A stretch of 51,368 bases of DNA, the filler included, from Streblomastix strix (taxonomy: Eukaryota), in assembly GCA_008636045.1 (NCBI GenBank). It is 2 parts of 2 records of this genome, joined end to end, with 100 filler letters (N's around TTAATTAATTAA, not from the genome) between each part and the next. Parts side by side here need not be neighbours in the genome. Positions count along the whole stretch, not along the records: positions 25,765 to 51,368 come from SNRW01000196.1; 1 more part is not named here. One strand, given 5' to 3'. A program made the translations under genes and the position numbers. The notes beneath the pieces were generated by a model that was not told the origin of the DNA, ran no database searches, and saw only the letters and a list, made by a program, of their open reading frames with translations. Shown piece after piece: positions 28,635-44,339 of the stretch (position 1 is the first letter of the stretch; each line of letters starts with the position of its first letter).

Positions 28635-29033
28635 TCAATTACCATTATAATATGTTTTAAGATTCAATAGCTTCAAATACAATATATATCTCCACATCTT
28701 AGCAAGTTCCTCATCTTATTTTTCTATTGCTTCTTTAACGAATTCCTCTATTTATTCATTTGAATATTTGGACCAATGAAAATAACTTACTTAATTAATA
28801 TTTGGTTTATCAGTACTTTCCATCTTTTGTTTCTTTCTTCTACGATAAACGAATTGAAATATATATAAAATTATATTAATTGGAACTAGAATCACATTAA
28901 AATAATTCCATAATTATTTTATTAATGCAATAATGTCTATTAATTACTTAGGAATTGATAGAGAAATTATAGATACTAAGAAGTTAACTCCATAAAATAT
29001 AGAATTTATTACTATTATTATAATATTTAACAT
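28635..29033 (-). CDS. Small viral membrane protein, 132 aa, two predicted TM helices
   Basis: MLNIIIIVINSIFYGVNFLVSIISLSIP...WNYFNVILVPINIILYIFQFVY followed by RRRKKQK and a soluble tail. Confidence 0.6.
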
Positions 29034-29056
29034 ACGTTTGTTTTATTATAAATATA

Positions 29057-30116
29057 ATGACGTTATCCGAGATATAATCTGTGACTTTCACTGATAATTC
29101 TATGTTAGATGAATATAAAACAAAGCCATTGACAAGGAATTTATTATTTTTAATCAATGGGAATCATTATATAGTTGGTGCAGTTGGTTCAGGAAAAACA
29201 ACTTTATTATGTAAACTTATAGTAATCTACAAGTAAAAAATCAATCCATTCATTTTATATTTCTCTAATTTTGGTGCTGATGAGACTATGGCATTGAATC
29301 TAAACTCTAAGAATATCGTATTGACTAATATAACATACGATGAAGCTATGTATTTCCTTCCTTAATTTGATGAAATTAAATATAAAGTTAAAGAAATATA
29401 TACATACTGGAAGTTAAGTGAAGTAAATGTATCGTACAAATCTGATTACATATAGAGAATGAAGGAAAGAATATTAATAATGAATCTAATAAAATAGAAT
29501 CCAACAAGAATATGCTTCTGCATCACCTGAATAATAATTAGAGAAACCAAAGGATTATGCAAGAAGAATTGCTAAGATATTTCGTTAGGAATGTATCAAT
29601 ATTAAAACGAAATATAGTGTTCCAACAACGATAATGAGATTTACTATTCCTGCTATGATTCATAACGTGTAATTCGAGAGAAAAAAAGAAATATCATAAG
29701 ATGATGGTGATGCTGAATTAAAAGTATCGAAGATTCCTATATTATTTCATAGTTTACTGTTAAATTCATTGTTAATATTTGATGACATAGGAAGTAATGT
29801 TGATATTTAAAGATTCTCCTCAGGATTGTCAAAGACAATAACTCATTTAGTTTCCGACAGTAGACATAGTAAAAATACTGTTTTCTTTGTTGCATAACGT
29901 CCAAGTTACTTATTCAAAACAGCAAGAATATTATCACATGTTATGTGTTTAGGAGTTAATCTATCTGAAAGTGATTTAAAACAAGCTTACGAAGAGAATT
30001 CTATTTAGAATCTTGACTTTGATGACTTTATGTTACTGTATGGTACTCTTAATAAATATGAATTCATAATACTTAATAAGTTGCAGAGTAAATATGAGAT
30101 CTTAAAGAATCAATGA
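29057..30116 (+). pseudogene. A32-like (FtsK-HerA superfamily) DNA packaging ATPase, frameshifted
   Basis: Walker A IVGAVGSGKTTLL, Walker B LLIFDDIG, and SRHSKNTVFFVAQRPSYLFKTARIL (A32-type RH...Q...R motifs). The first frame hits TGA at 29528 and the C-terminal half is in the +1 frame (shift near 29470-29520). Confidence 0.9.
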
Positions 30117-30124
30117 TAATATGT

Positions 30125-31927
30125 ATGATTATATTTATTTTTCTTTATTCAAATATTACATTAGCTAAAACCTTGAGTTAATAATAGATCTAAGTTATTC
30201 GTTCATTAATATAATCAGATTTCCAATATTTGATATAATATTCAAGGAAATCATCAAGTTCTAGCAGTAAATTATCAGGAAGTGAATATTAATTGACGGT
30301 TGATGATTAAAACTCATTAATATATGCACCAATTGATAATACTTAGAATTGAGCAATGAAACTTGAAACTAATGGTGTTATGACATTGAAAAATATAAAT
30401 TTATTAAATAATGATTTCTTAGCGAAAATAACTATATTAGAATAAGAAGTTAACGTATTGTAATAGACATTAGGAACTGCAACTTAAGATATTGGTGGTT
30501 TGCAATAATAAATTAATGTAATTAATGAAGAACTTAATAGATAAACACATTTTAGAGGAAACTATTTATTGAACACAGATATATAATAATTAGAAAACTC
30601 TGCCAATGGTGATTTTGCATTCTCAGCTGAAAGTGGAACAGTATGGATGTATGATAACAGTTGGTATGACAGTGGAGATATAGTTCTTGATTAAGTAACT
30701 CCTGCAAGTGATGTTAATCCATTAATTGATAGTGGAACTGGAGTTGCTGGAACTTCAACTGAGTATTCTCATGATCATTAACATCCACTATAAGTATCTA
30801 CATCATTACCAAGTAAAGATACATCTGTTGGTACTATCGGCTCAGCTAGTTCTTATGCAAGATCTGATCATTAACATCCAATTCAGACTGTAGATACTAT
30901 TCCAGTTAGTGATTCAGCAGATGGATCTTATGGTACTGTTGATTTATATGCTAGAAATGATCATTCACATCCAGTTAATGTACAAACTAATGCTTCAATT
31001 ATACTTATAGTTAATGGAGTTGAAAATAATGGTACTTCAGCATTTTATTCAAGACATGATCATGTTCATCTTTAGTAATTGACTTATGATGGTAACGTTA
31101 CAGCTACTAAATTTATTAAGACAGGTGGATTAGCAACAGAAATACTATGCGCTAATGGTGATACAAAAGCTATATCTGATATTGATAGTGATTCAGTTAA
31201 AAAGACATGCAAATCAATATAAATCGTATAAAGATATCTACGTTATGGTGGAAAACCTCCATAAGATGATGATGAAGAATCGGATTCCTCTGATGATGAT
31301 GATTATTAAACTAGAGGCAAAATATATAGTTAATATGTAAATAAAACATAAACTGAAACAATAGTTGCAAGAAAGACATTTAAAAATGATTAATTTTAGT
31401 TATAACCAATAGGTATAACAAAACCATTAATATTATTCGCTAGTAACTCATCTAATTATTGTTGTGAATAAATGTTAAATGAAAATGAGCTAATGATATC
31501 ATATAATTCAGCATAGACAAACTAAAATTTTTACATTAACTTCAGTGATACTGTTTTATCAGGGACTTACCCCAATGCTAAAATACTATAACGTTTTATA
31601 TTAAATGCTGGTACTTCTACATCTTTTGCAAGCATTACTTCTGGTAATATGTAAATAAATCCTACAGCAACTAGTTATGATGATGGCTTGAGAATATCAA
31701 GAACTGATCCAGATACAGGTAATTCATCAATTTAATTAGGCTGTTGCAGAACATCAAACACTGTTACAATTGTAGGATAATGGACAATATTTACACCGCC
31801 AAATACTGCTATTTAAAACTCCTAAAGTTTTGTTATAGCATCAGCATATTAAGCTGGAGATAATACTAGAGGATTATAAATTAGTGCTGATGGAAACACA
31901 TTAACTTTCAATGATAGAGTACTATGA
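30125..31927 (+). pseudogene. Long phage-tail-fibre-like protein (~600 codons) with four DHxH repeats; one in-frame TGA
   Basis: Coiled coil, then GVAGTSTEYSHDHQHP, GSASSYARSDHQHP, GTVDLYARNDHSHP, GTSAFYSRHDHVHL and VTATKFIKTGGLATEILCANGDT. TGA at 30350-30352, with an in-frame ATG at 30356. Start codon uncertain. Confidence 0.75.
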
Positions 31928-31964
31928 GACTCTTAATATTATTTAATTTATTTTTCCTAGAAAC

Positions 31965-32414
31965 ATGTCAAAACCACATAAATAATTATTCACTGAACTA
32001 GCAAAAACAAACTATGAAGACGAAGGTTTAATAAGAACATCGATAGAAACACTATAAAATCTGCTGATGAAAAATAAATAAGATTCATAACATATATTAC
32101 TAAAGGAATTAATAAGAATTAGTAAGTAATTCACAATATAATAGAGTAAATTATATTCAATGAAATAATTTGTTAATGATGAAGACTATAAAAATAAAAT
32201 ATATGGTGAGAATAATAAGTACTATGCAAATGAATATAACCAAATCAAGAAGAAAATGGATTTGAATCAATATCCATAATAAATAAAGAAATATATTATA
32301 TCTGAAGCAACTGATGATGAAAAATAGATATATAATTAATTTGTTATGGATGTAGATAATCAACTATTTTGTGCATATTATCAATTAACTTAGCTTAGCG
32401 TATCTAAATATTGA
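31965..32414 (+). CDS. Viral hypothetical protein, 149 aa
   Basis: MSKPHKQLFTELAKTNYEDEG...QLSVSKY*; open in code 6. Confidence 0.65.
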
Positions 32415-32614
32415 AGATAACCTATGATTTCTTAAGTTTTATCTGATATAATACCAAATCTTTCACATTCTTATTTTTTTTAATCATAGTACTATTATTG
32501 AAAATCATCTAATTCCTCATCATCAATCAATGTCTCAAATATTTTAAACACTTCATAATCAGAAGCATTATGTTCTTTTCCTAATGCTTAAGCAAAATAA
32601 TATAAATCGTCCAT
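32381..32614 (-). CDS. Viral hypothetical acidic protein, 77 aa
   Basis: MDDLYYFAQALGKEHNASDYEVFKIFETLIDDEELDDF...*; 3' end overlaps the previous ORF by 34 bp. Confidence 0.55.
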
Positions 32615-32679: not shown

Positions 32680-32886
32680 TCATCTCTTATTTAAGTGTCT
32701 ATTTATTCCTCCAGTAATGTTACCAACTGTATTCATAACTGCACCAGCACCTGAATGCAACATGCTTACTGGTCCACTTAAAGTTCCCATTACTTTATGG
32801 AGCGTAGGGGCAACCCAGCCAGCAACTTTCTTAATACCACCTAATATCTTACTTCCGAAATTTTTCAAACCAGAGAAGAATCCCAT
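32680..32886 (-). CDS. 68-aa amphipathic cationic peptide, putative membrane-penetration protein (adenovirus pVI-like helix)
   Basis: MGFFSGLKNFGSKILGGIKKVAGWVAPTLHKV...; Gly/Lys/hydrophobic periodicity, no acidic residues, N-terminal MG; divergent from the putative MCP. Confidence 0.75.
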   Translation of the reverse strand: MGFFSGLKNFGSKILGGIKKVAGWVAPTLHKVMGTLSGPVSMLHSGAGAVMNTVGNITGGINRHLNKR

Positions 32887-32975
32887 ATTGAATTTAATTT
32901 GATTTTCTTGTTTGTGTATTTGTTTAAATAATAAAACTTACTTACTGTTTTAAATTCTAAGTAAATCAAACTAAT

Positions 32976-34922
32976 ATGAGTTTATCAGCATGTGATTATA
33001 TATAAAAATTAGCTCATGTTTAACATTCTGATTATATATCTACTTATTCAGCGATGTCAGAAGTATTAAGATAAGCATCAATTCATCCATAGAGTTTCTA
33101 ACTAAGTAGAAAAGAATTCTTTGATTAACCTGTATCTTAACTAACAATTGATGGATAAAGATATACTAGAGCTCCATTAGGTGCAAGAGGTAATACTACT
33201 TGTTCAATAGCATAATCATGTTAAGTTAGTTGGTAAATTACTATCCCTGCGGAGAGATTAGCATTATAACTTAATAAAGCAGCAACTGCAGCAGCTGCTA
33301 CTGCTGAATTGGCTAGAGATAGAGTAAATTTCAATGGATTAATTGATCCATAAGCAGAGTGGGTTCGTACTATGCGAGTTGGTGCTGATGATAATGAATT
33401 ACCAATCAATGATGACGAACGTATTAAGCTATGGATTGGTTATTCAACAGCTTGTGGACCATTCTAATAAATAGCAATCAGTAAAGATAATATAAAGCTA
33501 TGGGAAACATCTATTTATGCTAGAGAATAAGCAGTAATAGCTGCAAATTCATTATCAGATGAATGTACCAGGAATTCTGTCAGTGTATCATCATTTGAAT
33601 CAATAGTTAGAGGAAGAAGACATTGTGGAATCTTCTTAGATATTCCTGTTTCAGAGTTTGCTGCAGCAAATTTTAATTATAAGTTTCCATTTGATATAAT
33701 AATTACTGGAGTACTTGATTTAAACTAGTTAAATCCAATATTCAATTCATTTCCAGTGTTAACACGTAACTATGCATCGCTATATTTATAGTTGTGGACT
33801 TAAGATTTCCTATAAGATCTGAAGGTTGTATATTTGAATAAGTCTAATACATATACGAATACACATCTTGCTTACTAAATGATTCCACCAGAGAAACCTG
33901 ATCTATTTTACCTTTTAAATACAGCTGGAAGTGCTTATGCACCATATAACGTAAGAATTGTTAATATGGAAGGTAATCTAGCTACTGAAAAAAAGCCTAC
34001 AAATTCAATAAGTTAAATTAAGGATGCTAGATTCAATAATTTAGATATTATTAATGTTGGTTTCAATATGGAGAATGAAGAAGTTATCATTGATATGATA
34101 AGAACTCAAAAAATATTGAATTTCCCAACGTAAATTATACGTACATAATCAACTAATTTCCCATTTTGAGGATTCATAGCTAGTGGTGGTTCTATGTAAA
34201 GTATAATGTCATTATTAAACATAAAATCTATGTTTATTACATTTGCTATGAACTAATATCCAACTTGGTTTTTCCCAGTGTTATTTTAAAGGTTCAATTT
34301 GGAAATTGATCAGCGACATCTTATTTAATAAGACTATGTATCGTTGAATCCAACTGTCACTTCATAGATGTTCGAATGCTTTGTTGAATAAGACTTAGTT
34401 TCTGCACCATCAGATTTATATCATTCATTGAATTTCCAAAATCGAACTATAAATGAAGGAGAGAGTAAGTTTTACTATGGGCGTGTTGGTAATATCTAAG
34501 AAACAGAGAATATCTTCTATAATACTACGTTATCTGTAGGTAGTAAAGCAGTAAAAATATATTATCCTCATAAATTCATGCTTGCTTGGAAGATAGCAAC
34601 TGATGATTCATTCAGGAGAGGATATAATGTGTCTAAAATGGGTGCTAGAACTAATATATATGTTAGTTTATCAGGCTCTTTAACAGAAGGAATCGTCGGT
34701 ACTGAGTTGATTAAATTGACTCCCGAAGAAAATCAAAACAATCTTATTTCATTTATTGCAACAAGAGCATATCCTACTCCAACATATGCCTAGATAACTC
34801 CTCAGATGCACTATCTATGTGATGCTATCATTAGATTTACCTTTGATGATGCACCTGATCGATAGGTTTTAAACTTTGAAATCATTGGTGAAGTTGGTGG
34901 AACTATGATAAGAATTGGATGA
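32976..34922 (+). pseudogene. Putative major capsid protein (double jelly-roll), 648 codons, one in-frame TGA
   Basis: Largest non-enzymatic ORF of the element; complex sequence with alternating hydrophobic beta-strand patterns and no low complexity; lies near the ATPase and fibres. TGA at 34167-34169. The fold is inferred from size and context only. Confidence 0.65.
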
Positions 34923-35231: not shown

Positions 35232-37931
35232 ATGGCACAAAGTTAAAAAGGTTCATAATTATCTCCCAAGGAAATGTATATCAAATCAAAAATCACTGAT
35301 TATTCTCCATAAGAACGAGAATAAATAACTGTACTCTACTTTAAAATGGCTGATAGACTACATCTTGACTATAATAAGATGCTAGAAGAAGCTGAATCAC
35401 ATCGTAATGATTCAGTAGAAGAGCGTAATATATTCAGCTCTTATAAGTTTTCGAGTTATCTTCTTGCTCTGACGGAAGATTACGATTATTATACATCAAA
35501 AGAACTTACTCCACGAATTTCCGAGAAACTGATATAATTATATGATTTCAAGAAATTCAACGATGAAATTACTCCATTAGAAGATGATGTGTAGGAAAAA
35601 CCAGTAAAAACTAGGAAAATTACTGGAAAAGCTATAAATATTGCTGATTGCCCATACTTAGCTATTGTTGATATAGATATTGACAAGAAACTAAGTGAAG
35701 AAGATAGAAACCTCATAAGAAATGAACTCTTAGAGAAGATTTATCAATCAGAATTAAACGTAGCCTTAGTTAAAAACTGGTCATTGAGGTTTACATATAT
35801 ATTGTAATATGGATCCTCTAATTCTACTTGCTGGGAATACAATGGTTAAAAAATAGCTACTGAGAAATACGATGTAGATATATTTGCTTGTGTAGATTCC
35901 AATGAAAGTAAGAGATGTATTGTTTTACCTGATTCAAGAATCAAAGACTTTGAATATAATACAGTAACTAAGAGATAATAACCAAAATAACCAAATCAAA
36001 TATTTAAATACGAGAAGTTAGGAAATTCGAAAACAAAATTTGATAAAAAGAAAGATCTAAGTCTCATATCATAAGTATGATAAGTACTTGGATTTGATAT
36101 TGAGCTTATAAAATACCATGAATAACCAGAATAAGATGATAAAGTTAGTTATGATGTTAATATGACGAAATAATAAGCTGATATATTAATAAATGGTCTT
36201 AACAATCTAATTATTCATAATTATGCTGCTAAATCAGAGAAAGAAACTACTCTATTTAAGTTATTTTCATCAGTTAATGGAATGAAAGCTATTGCTCATG
36301 TTGACCTATAGTGGAATAATGAAGCTTATAATAAAATTAGTTAAATTCAAGGTCTAACTATCAAAGCAAGATCAAACTTCGATAGAAATCGTATTAGACT
36401 TGCTGAAAGATCATGTACTCTTCATTATATAGAGAAAATAGTTAGATTAACTGATGAAGAGTATTACAATAGTGAATACTTACCAACTGTCTACGACAGA
36501 GCGAAGCCTGAAGTTAAATCGGACGATACTAAATCAAAATCAAGTAGTAAATCTAACAATGATGATGATATCATTGATCTAGCAAAAATTACAGTAAATG
36601 ATATTGATTTAACTGACTAATTTGAGTTAGCAGATATATGAACTAAGATTAGTAAAGGAGAATATGAGTGTGTTGAAGATATTGTATCTGATATGACTAA
36701 GATAATGAGATATATACACTCTGATACGGTAACATTCTTATTCAAATAATATAATAATCTTGAAAAGAAATATATTTTCGTTCGGAAAAGCGAATCATGT
36801 GCATAAGATATATTAAACATGATTCCAGCACATTTTAATAGAAAGAAGTCTAAAACACTGTGGTAATTAGCTACAGCATATAATTAGATATTCTTAATTA
36901 GGAAGGTTGAATTTAAAAGTGATGATACAGATGTATTTTCCATGTTTTAAGGCTGGAAATATCACGAACTTGAGCAAATAAACATGGATTTAATACAACC
37001 ATATCCAGATCATATAAAATAAGTAATTTCTTCCAATGATACAACTGTTTATGAATACATTTTGAAATGATATGCATTGATAATATAACTTCCAGAATAA
37101 CAGACACGTGTATCAATGATATTAAGAGGTGGATAAGGCTGTGGTAAAAATACTTTTACTGATGTACTGTCTGAGTTAATATCTGGTTATTCATTAAGAA
37201 ATATTACTTCATTAACATCAGTGACTGGCTAATTCAATTCTATCTTGAGTAATAGAGTATTTATAGTGCTTAATGAGCTTACAACATTCAGTTCTTCTAT
37301 TAGTCATGAAGTTGATAAGTTAAAATCATTGATATCAGATCCAACTCTTGAAATTCGTACTATATTCTCTAATTCACGTGTTGAAAAGAACTTATTAAAT
37401 TTCATTTTAGTATCCAATCATTTAGATCCTGTTCATTTAGACCAAGATGATAGAAGATACTTAGTATGTTAATATGATTCTAAATATACGAAGAATACTT
37501 AATATTTCAACAATCTATTTCAACATATAAATCAAGAAGGTTTCTATGATAATCTCATAATTTACTTTCATAAATTAGATATTTCATAGTTTGACGCTAG
37601 AATCATCCCAATGACTGAGGCTAAAAAGGAAATTATCGAAGTATCATTAACTGACATTGATATATTCTGTATTTAATATTTCAAATAGTTAAAAGTTGGT
37701 TGGTTATGCGATGAAGCACTAAGATATTATCCAGATTCTATTAAGCCATAAAACTTCAGATTATAAATTCATAAGAACTGTGAAACTATAAGACAACATC
37801 GTATGAAGAAACAACTTAGATTGTATAAGATTAAGGAGGATAAAATAGCTGAACTAGAATAGTATGTTGAAGATGATGATAATGAATTGATTATTAATGA
37901 GATTAATGAAGAACACTAAAATACATTATGA
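35232..37931 (+). pseudogene. Primase-polymerase (AEP/Prim-Pol) fused to D5-like SF3 helicase, 899 codons, disrupted
   Basis: Prim-Pol motifs AIVDIDI, VKTGHxGLHIYC (displaced to the +1 frame), DVDIF, CIVLPDS. Helicase Walker A LRGGQGCGKNTF, Walker B VFIVLNE, motif C FILVSNH and DDRRY. In-frame TGA at 36078, 36639 and 37068. Confidence 0.9.
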
Positions 37932-42331: not shown

Positions 42332-43440
42332 TCACCAATCAATTATTTGTGCTTTAGGAATATTATCAACTACTGTGGGTTGTAGAAGAGTCTGCATTGA
42401 AATGATAGTTACAGCTGTTCCTTAATGTTGACGTTATACCTATTCAATAATGTGAAATTAAAAAATTGGAGTAATATTTATGAATTCATTCATTTTAATT
42501 CTATTTTTCTTCTATTATATATATACTATGAACTTAATGCAATCTGGAAGTCCAACAAATGAAATTGGCTGTTGTTTTTCTTCAGAAAGAAGTGCAATGT
42601 CCTTTTCTCTTTATCTTCATGCATGTTCACTTCTAAAGTCATCAAATTCCAATTTTTGTACTTATCATTGCCAGTTATGAATTAATCAACAGATTCTTCT
42701 GTGAGATGACTTATATTACCAATATAATAAGTGTTATAAAATTCTGAAGAAAAATTAGAAATAAAAAAAGTATTTAATTGATATTTAAATTTTTTCATAA
42801 ATTTCAACATTAATAAAATTATATAAATATTCGAATACTCTGATCCACAGTATCCAACGCTAACTGTACATTGAAAACAATGAAGAATATTCAAATAAGA
42901 TAAAATTATATTAAGTATTAAATTCATACATTCATCCTAACCAGGTAGGTACTAATCACCAAAGTCAAAGTTTGAATCAACTATACCAACCTCTGTAATT
43001 AAATTATTTTATTAATAAATAGTATATGATAATTATATATTCATACATCTGAAGCCCCTGTTCAAGTTTTGTAGGTCTTCAAACTTCAATTGAATCTGAA
43101 CTACTCCATCACCAGCAACAATTTCAGGATTAATAGCAACTGTATAATTCCTCATGGTTTTTAACTGAAATATGATATTAACAGAACATTTGACAAAATA
43201 AATATCATTTATAATAACTATTAATATATATGAATTTTTATTAATAAATTAAATTATTTATATTTACATTATTTTTTGTTTAAATACCTGAACAAGTTAA
43301 GTTAAATTTTCTCCTGGTATTCCTAATTATAAATTGATTTGTGATTATTAATAATAAATTTATAACTTTATAGTTTACCTTTGATTTCTTAAGAAACGGA
43401 AGGGAGTTTTATTTCAAATGTAACCGACTCGAGAACTGGA
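42332..43440 (-). pseudogene. Multi-exon SPRY/B30.2-like domain gene remnant with a frameshift
   Basis: Exons give NYTVAINPEIVAGDGVVQIQLKF, VGIVDSNFDFG, SVGYCG, LEVNMHEDKEKRTLHFF/EEKQQPISFVGLPDCIKF and ...IIDW*; GT-AG introns; 1-nt deletion near 42585. Confidence 0.5.
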
Positions 43441-43446
43441 TGTTAT

Positions 43447-43927
<481 letters not shown>

Positions 43928-44339
43928 AAAAAAAATTTTAAATTTCATTTTCTTCTAATAATCATTCTATCGTATTTTCTTTCTCATACAAATTTGTACA
44001 ATTTCAAATGGATCTTTTACTTCTTCATCAATATTCTCCCCACATTTTCTTTAATTTTCTTCAAATTCAAAATAAATTCCCTTATAATTTTGATAGCACT
44101 CATTTTCTTAAGTTGTTTCAATGATCTCAACATCGTTTTCTTTTATAATTGGAAAATTTTCCCTTATGCAAAGGAGGTGTGCTTTAAATAAAAAAAATAT
44201 AATTAAAAATTAATTATGGATTTTTTTTATAATTAAAATTTATAAAAATTATTTTATCCTATTTAATTGTTATACTCCTTAGACATTATTTCAATATGTT
44301 ATTAAAAAGTTGTCCCCTATAATAACTAAAATAAATAAA

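What the first reader, a model, noticed from the sequence alone, without database searches (positions are those of the whole stretch)
32680..32886. Stand-alone peptide resembling the adenovirus protein VI membrane-lytic helix, head-to-head with the capsid gene
Seen: intact 68-aa ORF MGFFSGLKNFGSKILGGIKKVAGW..., strongly amphipathic and cationic, starting 89 bp from the putative MCP start on the opposite strand. Established: human adenovirus pVI ruptures endosomes through the helix AFSWGSLWSGIKNFGSTVKNY; FSGLKNFGS matches WSGIKNFGS at 7 of 9 positions, with the other two conservative. Inference: a capsid-internal penetration peptide, possibly N-myristoylated at Gly2, that needs no protease maturation. 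This would link protist PLV entry to adenovirus entry by homology or convergence.
Basis: partly seen in the sequence, partly recalled or inferred. Interest (0 to 1): 0.82.

Follow-up and report, generated by a model that had tools for sequence, protein, structure and literature searches.

The report
Split-off virophage-type capsid entry peptide
A conserved 68-residue amphipathic peptide gene lies head-to-head with the likely capsid gene of integrated viruses in a termite-gut protist; it matches the tail that virophages cut off their capsid protein better than it matches adenovirus protein VI, so it is likely that tail made as a separate gene, predicted to breach host membranes during entry.

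Summary
The ORF is real: 68 aa, net charge +8, strongly amphipathic, starting 89 bp from the MCP start. It belongs to a large family whose listed members are almost all labelled Streblomastix strix. It is the next gene call to MCP on 10 of 11 shared contigs. The pVI match is real (7-8 of 9 residues) but covers only about 15 residues.

The closest relative found is the protease-released C-terminal tail of Sputnik-type virophage MCPs. Profile probability is 98; the tail profile scores the family at a median 33 bits against 17.8 for the best PDB chain. The peptide starts in register with the Gly-Gly cut site.

Best reading: a virion membrane-penetration peptide, the virophage tail encoded as its own gene, needing no protease to free its N-terminus. 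Function and capsid association are inferred. Similar heads begin unrelated phage virion proteins, so convergence remains possible, especially for pVI. Myristoylation is not supported. This genomic copy is decaying.

The parts
32680..32886 (-). 68-aa cationic amphipathic peptide gene, the finding. Residues 2-22 form the predicted lytic helix, followed by a Gly/Pro-rich helical part. This copy differs from the family at two nearly invariant positions (45 and 62).
32887..32975 (.). 89-bp AT-rich (17% GC) spacer between the divergent starts; a shared bidirectional promoter is inferred, not shown
32976..34922 (+). [quoted passage not shown]
30356..31927 (+). Fibre-like protein (coiled-coil start, repeats; label inferred from the sequence, no Pfam family passes). 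In 13 read-through gene calls of other copies the peptide runs into this gene.
28652..30116 (+). Probable packaging ATPase in two ORFs (Walker A-like in the first, Walker B-like in the second)
   Evidence: weak P-loop hits only
35232..37931 (+). Replication region in several ORFs, ending in a helicase-type domain (DUF5906, E 1.6e-18; VapE-like)
31890..32614 (.). Two unannotated ORFs (174 aa on +, 77 aa on -) between the fibre-like gene and the peptide

Best explanation
The ORF encodes a conserved amphipathic peptide of an integrated Polinton-like virus that is likely the counterpart of the protease-released C-terminal tail of virophage capsid proteins, made as its own gene, and it is predicted to be packaged in the virion and to breach a host membrane during entry. 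Shown: a conserved family beside MCP; a strongly amphipathic cationic head; sequence similarity to virophage tails beginning at the residue after the Gly-Gly site; an MCP without such a tail; no protease detected in the window. Inferred: co-expression with MCP from the shared spacer; removal of Met1 leaving the same free N-terminus that the protease creates in virophages; packaging inside the capsid; release on uncoating; insertion of residues 2-22 into the endosomal or vacuolar membrane; and descent from a fused MCP-tail gene by fission.
For: Family: 59 clusters by single-sequence search and 188 by profile. On the 11 contigs shared by the two hit lists, MCP is the next gene call in 10 and three calls away in 1; peptide identity to the window is at least that of MCP in 10 of 11. 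Head-to-head layout is seen in 13 of 64 further gene calls. Virophage link: 27 tails picked through jelly-roll words, not the motif. Profile-profile probability is 97.9-98.1; 0 of 60 shuffles reach the score under each of three schemes, two of which keep the hydrophobic pattern. The tail profile finds this ORF first in the window, 33.5 bits against 8.0 for the next, and scores the family at a median 33.1 bits, 90 of 100 at E<1e-3 for a PDB-sized search; the best PDB chain scores 17.8 and motif-selected phage heads 10-16. The peptide profile lands in register just after the Gly-Gly-type site in 28 of 37 virophage MCPs. That site aligns with the mapped mavirus cut and lies within a residue of the end of the solved Sputnik MCP chain. 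Born et al. predicted an endosome-rupturing amphipathic helix in that fragment (PMC6048507, section 17). Several of the 12 PDB neighbours of the tail profile are membrane-lytic peptides: six pre-pVI chains, a myeloid antimicrobial peptide and a capsid gamma peptide (none significant).
Against: No expression, virion or membrane data. Similarity is concentrated in the first 20 residues: residues 13-68 give probability 72 and residues 23-68 only 4. The Streblomastix MCP shows no profile similarity to virophage MCPs (probability 0.2), so a shared MCP ancestor with a tail is not shown. Similar heads start 7 distinct unrelated proteins, mostly of tailed phages, in 12 of 18 loci, so the motif can recur. 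The virophage set grew from motif-selected seeds and is biased to one clade; 4 of 37 MCPs had no recognisable tail. The lytic role of the virophage tail is itself a prediction, and Born et al. did not detect the fragments in native virions. The protease search was insensitive (control 7-10 bits) and covered one window. No dN/dS was obtained; the protein-level signal is modest (mean BLOSUM 0.07 against -0.38 expected).
Confidence: 0.58

Rival explanations
1. Convergent entry peptide: membrane-lytic and virion-borne, but independently evolved; the shared head is a recurring solution for virion membrane-penetrating helices.
For: Similar Met-Gly-Phe heads begin phage virion-module proteins, one a DNA-ejection family member (phrog_598, E 2.7e-17), and an ORF in a Rep-encoding small contig. 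An antimicrobial peptide and a gamma peptide score as well as pVI against the tail profile. The MCPs are not alignable.
Against: The family scores about twice as high on the virophage profile as those recurring heads do (33 against 10-16 bits). Similarity persists beyond the head (median 11.3 bits against 1.2 shuffled and 3.3 reversed). The start falls in register with the cut site.
Confidence: 0.2
2. Assembly or core protein: it works like the scaffolding, DNA-tethering role proposed for the mavirus MCP tail, binding capsomers or DNA rather than lysing membranes.
For: Born et al. found full-length MCP to be the assembly-competent form and propose scaffolding and DNA binding by the tail (PMC6048507). 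The peptide is cationic (+8) and tied to MCP.
Against: The peptide corresponds to the first, amphipathic fragment and lacks the Lys/Arg-rich later fragments to which DNA binding was assigned. Its hydrophobic moment is extreme.
Confidence: 0.12
3. Non-virion membrane toxin: an egress (viroporin-like) or antibacterial peptide acting in the cell or on symbionts.
For: Weak antimicrobial-peptide Pfam hits in 3 of 100 members (E 0.17-0.55); the nearest named Atlas cluster is cecropin at 0.79. Small DNA viruses encode predicted pore-formers (10.64898/2026.10.13.758929, passages).
Against: No signal peptide or long hydrophobic segment (mean hydrophobicity of the sampled 18-mers at most 0.66); the best match is a capsid-derived peptide.
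Confidence: 0.08
4. Not a functional gene: a chance ORF carried along in a multicopy element.
For: This copy is decaying (MCP stop, split ATPase); dN/dS was not measured.
Against: Fixed length and about 20 nearly invariant columns among relatives down to 40-50% identity; conserved at least as well as MCP; GC 39% against 17-20% in its flanks.
Confidence: 0.02

Closest known systems
C-terminal tail (fragment C1) of virophage major capsid proteins, Sputnik/mavirus type (Born et al. 2018, PMC6048507)
   Same: Amphipathic cationic head starting at the same register, similar length (about 50-65 aa), Pro/Gly-containing second part; profile probability 98.
   Different: Stand-alone gene on the opposite strand rather than an MCP tail; no protease found; lacks the later basic fragments; its MCP is not alignable to virophage MCP.
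Adenovirus protein VI amphipathic helix, residues 34-54 (PMC8156859; Pfam PF02993)
   Same: Shared 9-residue core: 7-8 of 9 for this copy, identical in 12 of 100 relatives; profile probability 94 over 15 columns. In pVI the helix also follows a Gly-Gly protease site.
   Different: No similarity outside the helix (probability 0.9); 68 against about 250 aa; no N-terminal hexon-binding propeptide and no C-terminal protease cofactor; no Pfam hit.
Adintovirus cupiennin-like genes and the 'Macc' membrane-active core class (PMC8502044; PMC11071296)
   Same: Small predicted membrane-active genes in the virion module of Polinton-type viruses.
Capsid gamma peptide (PDB 1F8V; nodavirus origin recalled) and phage ejection-protein N-termini
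   Same: Helix-Pro-helix or similar head; weak scores.
   Different: Unrelated virus groups; best treated as analogues.

Membership tests
Adenovirus protein VI (PF02993) | Match to the MCPVI family profile | tested here: not met
   0 of 100 members at E<=10; a fetched pVI scores E 4.8e-101 as control
Adenovirus protein VI (PF02993) | N-terminal amphipathic helix with the conserved 9-residue core | tested here: met
Adenovirus protein VI (PF02993) | 33-residue propeptide and C-terminal protease cofactor, both cut by AVP | tested here: not met
   The ORF starts at the helix and has 68 aa; no similarity after the motif; features from PMC8156859
Adenovirus protein VI (PF02993) | Membrane lysis and packaging in the capsomer cavity | not testable with these tools
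   Needs experiments
Virophage MCP C-terminal tail (C1) | Sequence similarity to tails, in register with the first cut site | tested here: met
Virophage MCP C-terminal tail (C1) | Fused to a Sputnik-type MCP (PF21915/PF22031) | tested here: not met
   Separate gene; the neighbouring MCP family has no such Pfam hit and no profile match
Virophage MCP C-terminal tail (C1) | Released by a virus-encoded cysteine protease | tested here: inconclusive
   No protease found in the window, but the control was weak and only one copy was searched
N-myristoylated viral penetration peptides | Gly2 in an N-myristoyltransferase-compatible context | tested here: not met
   Gly2 in 93 of 100, but a recalled PROSITE-type pattern is met in 2 of 100; a pattern is not an assay, and no paper confirming the rule was found
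Endogenous Polinton-like virus | Double-jelly-roll MCP, packaging ATPase and replication gene together | tested here: inconclusive
   Helicase domain solid and ATPase weak; MCP by database names and Atlas neighbours; own fold search not significant
Endogenous Polinton-like virus | Integrase, minor capsid protein, terminal inverted repeats | tested here: inconclusive
   None identified in the Pfam scans; the repeat listing was swamped by simple repeats

The most novel reading that the evidence does not exclude
One ancestral membrane-lytic helix is shared by descent across three double-jelly-roll virus lineages in three architectures: behind a propeptide in adenovirus pVI, as the cleaved MCP tail in virophages, and as a free-standing gene in Streblomastix elements, where a start codon replaces the protease cut. 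In the IMG/VR scan the Trp-initial form of the motif occurred in 39 loci, all pVI (36) or virophage MCP tails (3).
Probability: 0.4. Interest if true: 0.82.

Novelty: new variant of a known kind. Interest (0 to 1): 0.64.

Why it matters
How virophages and Polinton-like viruses cross host membranes is largely unknown, and pVI has no recognised relative in the papers I searched. A short shared helix gives a candidate origin for adenovirus endosomal escape, sequence support for the 2018 prediction about the mavirus capsid tail, and a case of a maturation cleavage replaced by gene fission. It is testable with synthetic peptides and liposomes. It also gives a marker for finding unannotated entry peptides in protease-less Polinton-like viruses.

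Tried and rejected
No whole genome is held for this window, so there is no DNA of sister copies and no dN/dS. The wide read-laying showed the stretch in DNA contigs of three studies but listed too few variants inside the ORF to use. No RNA holder was listed. The complex prediction of MCP with the peptide gave no answer.

The MCP model was poor (pLDDT 51). Foldseek gave nothing at E<=0.001 in either library, only weak jelly-roll capsid rows; the VIA-align searches did not run.

The peptide and its profile found nothing useful in the PDB or Pfam. Four of the 73 representative hits (P0125, P0134, P0174, P0188) are unrelated repeat proteins and were set aside. The Atlas lead to a 92-aa Parabasalia cluster (0.89) could not be fetched. 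Earlier findings of this scan: none returned.

Rejected: pVI as closest relative; myristoylation as likely; the 194-aa table-6 reading; the terminal Gly of the MCP (55 of 73 records, 13 end in Gln) as proof of fission, since it is only suggestive. The Streblomastix MCP modelled in Bellas et al. Table S3 (EZS28_010462) looks like a different family and is not among the hits listed, so its Sputnik match was not used as evidence.

Full report
Setting. The window yields long ORFs only when TAA and TAG are read as Gln, and homologues are labelled Streblomastix strix. Between about 25.8 and 37.9 kb lies a virus-like block: a split ATPase, a fibre-like gene, the peptide, a probable MCP with an internal stop, and a helicase-ending replication region. 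Bellas et al. report 820 MCP copies in S. strix (PMC10120064: passages and supplement rows). A 2026 preprint leaves Metamonada elements ungrouped (10.64898/2026.06.19.733378, passages). This copy is decaying.

Observation. The 68-aa ORF, the 89-bp gap and the charge are as described. Residues 3-20 have a hydrophobic moment of 0.62, reached by a fraction 0.0001 of 8,997 background 18-mers. The model is helical throughout.

A real gene family. A single-sequence search gave 59 of 59 candidates. A profile gave 188 of 4,146; I saw the best 120, all S. strix apart from the window's own record and three JGI records. In 100 near-full-length members chosen for alignment, lengths are 68-70 aa and about 20 columns are nearly invariant. 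Of 64 further gene calls, 13 carry antisense MCP sequence upstream of the peptide and 13 run on into the fibre-like gene. dN/dS could not be computed. Substitutions between subfamilies are mildly more conservative than unselected changes (0.07 against -0.38).

The pVI claim. Two pattern scans of IMG/VR gave 52 loci: 36 adenovirus pVI, 4 virophage MCPs, 10 others and 2 without an in-frame motif. The window 9-mer matches pVI at 7 or 8 of 9, and 12 of 100 relatives match a pVI 9-mer exactly. Profile comparison gives probability 94 over 15 columns, above 0 of 60 shuffles in each scheme, but nothing beyond the motif. A pVI profile scores the family at a median 9.9 bits, none of 100 significant (that profile comes from motif-selected, closely related sequences). 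No member hits PF02993. The pVI helix (residues 34-54) and its lytic role are from PMC8156859 (passages).

The better match. The four virophage hits lay at the start of the MCP C-terminal tail. I then collected 43 virophage loci through jelly-roll words. Of these, 37 had an MCP ORF of 400 aa or more reaching its end (one is cut late in the tail), 33 gave a tail, and I dropped 5 that were motif-linked and 1 duplicate, leaving 27. Family against tails gives probability 97.9-98.1, with 0 of 60 shuffles reaching the score under each of three schemes. The tail profile ranks this ORF first in the window, 33.5 bits against 8.0, and scores the family at a median 33.1 bits. Its best PDB hit is 17.8 bits; the 12 rows at E<=10 include six pre-pVI chains matched at the lytic helix, a myeloid antimicrobial peptide and a capsid gamma peptide, none significant. 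The peptide profile lands in register just after the Gly-Gly-type site in 28 of 37 MCPs. That site aligns with the mapped mavirus cut at 516/517 and lies within a residue of the end of the solved Sputnik chain. One pairwise alignment runs ungapped for 58 residues at 31% identity. Born et al. showed the cleavage and predicted an endosome-rupturing amphipathic helix in fragment C1, but did not detect the fragments in virions (PMC6048507: abstract, passages, section 17 and supplement passages; the alignment figure S2 is a picture I could not see).

Results against. The match weakens quickly after the head: probability 72 for residues 13-68 and 4 for residues 23-68, although residues 13-68 still beat shuffled and reversed controls. 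The two MCP families do not align. The virophage sample grew from motif-selected seeds. A scan for the Met-Gly-Phe head found it at residue 1 in 12 of 18 loci (7 distinct proteins), mostly in tailed-phage virion modules; one is a DNA-ejection family member and one lies in a small Rep-encoding contig. The head therefore recurs in unrelated viruses. That fits a membrane role and weakens any argument from the motif alone; these heads score 10-16 bits on the tail profile. pVI scores no better than an antimicrobial peptide in the PDB test, so descent of pVI from the same helix is possible but unproven. Against pure chance, the Trp-initial motif was found only in pVI and virophage tails, 39 of 39 loci.

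Mechanism. Shown: gene, conservation, position, amphipathicity, similarity and register, an MCP lacking the tail, and no protease in the window (weak test). Inferred: divergent co-expression with MCP, Met removal exposing the N-terminus that the protease exposes in virophages, packaging, release on uncoating and membrane rupture. Myristoylation is unlikely on a recalled pattern (2 of 100) and is not needed to explain the start, because bacteriophage proteins share it. Confidence 0.58; rivals are convergence (0.2), scaffold or core role (0.12), non-virion toxin (0.08) and non-gene (0.02).

Known or new. Membrane-active small genes in Polinton-type virion modules are a known idea: cupiennin-like genes (PMC8502044, passages) and the Macc class (PMC11071296, passages). 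I found no paper describing this family or a sequence link between virophage tails and pVI. This rests on ten library searches (two of them concerned pVI mutants and myristoylation) and term look-ups in PMC11161782, PMC6723459, PMC12220804, 10.1101/2023.08.22.554363 and the two 2026 preprints (passages only). The library lacks most subscription papers, and preprint supplements could not be read. Verdict: a new variant of a known kind; it works like pVI and the virophage tail but is not a member of the pVI family. Interest 0.64.

Noticed in passing
L062-L101, MCP C-termini (e.g. L081:3669-3833): Sputnik-type virophage MCP tails share a conserved amphipathic head with the adenovirus pVI helix; three tails carry a 9-mer identical to a pVI and a tail profile lists six pre-pVI chains among 12 weak PDB hits. 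This holds apart from the Streblomastix peptide.
   Followed up: yes
L106, L108, L109, L113, L114, L116: Tailed-phage virion-module proteins begin with a similar Met-Gly-Phe amphipathic head; L114:5001-5648 is a DNA-ejection family member.
   Followed up: partly
L112:1168-1668: A 2.9-kb Rep-encoding (CRESS-like) contig has a 167-aa ORF with the same head beside a probable capsid gene.
   Followed up: partly
window:32976-34922 and homologues: This roughly 650-aa MCP family appears distinct from the S. strix MCP modelled by Bellas et al.; 55 of 73 records end in Gly and 13 in Gln.
   Followed up: partly
Atlas clusters: Parabasalia clusters neighbour both the peptide (92 aa, 310 members, 0.89) and the MCP (583 aa, 522 members, 0.96), hinting that trichomonad elements carry the same pair.
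   Followed up: no
window:27825-28598 and 30356-31927: Two fibre-like ORFs share a short repeat with weak hits to the BppL_N baseplate domain (E 0.93 and 0.054).
   Followed up: no
L061:611-2918: A virophage with two tandem penton-like genes upstream of its MCP (label inferred from position and similarity).
   Followed up: no
window:7774-7938 and 43400-43950: Long AAT/TTA trinucleotide runs, one inside a large host ORF as poly-Asn.
   Followed up: no
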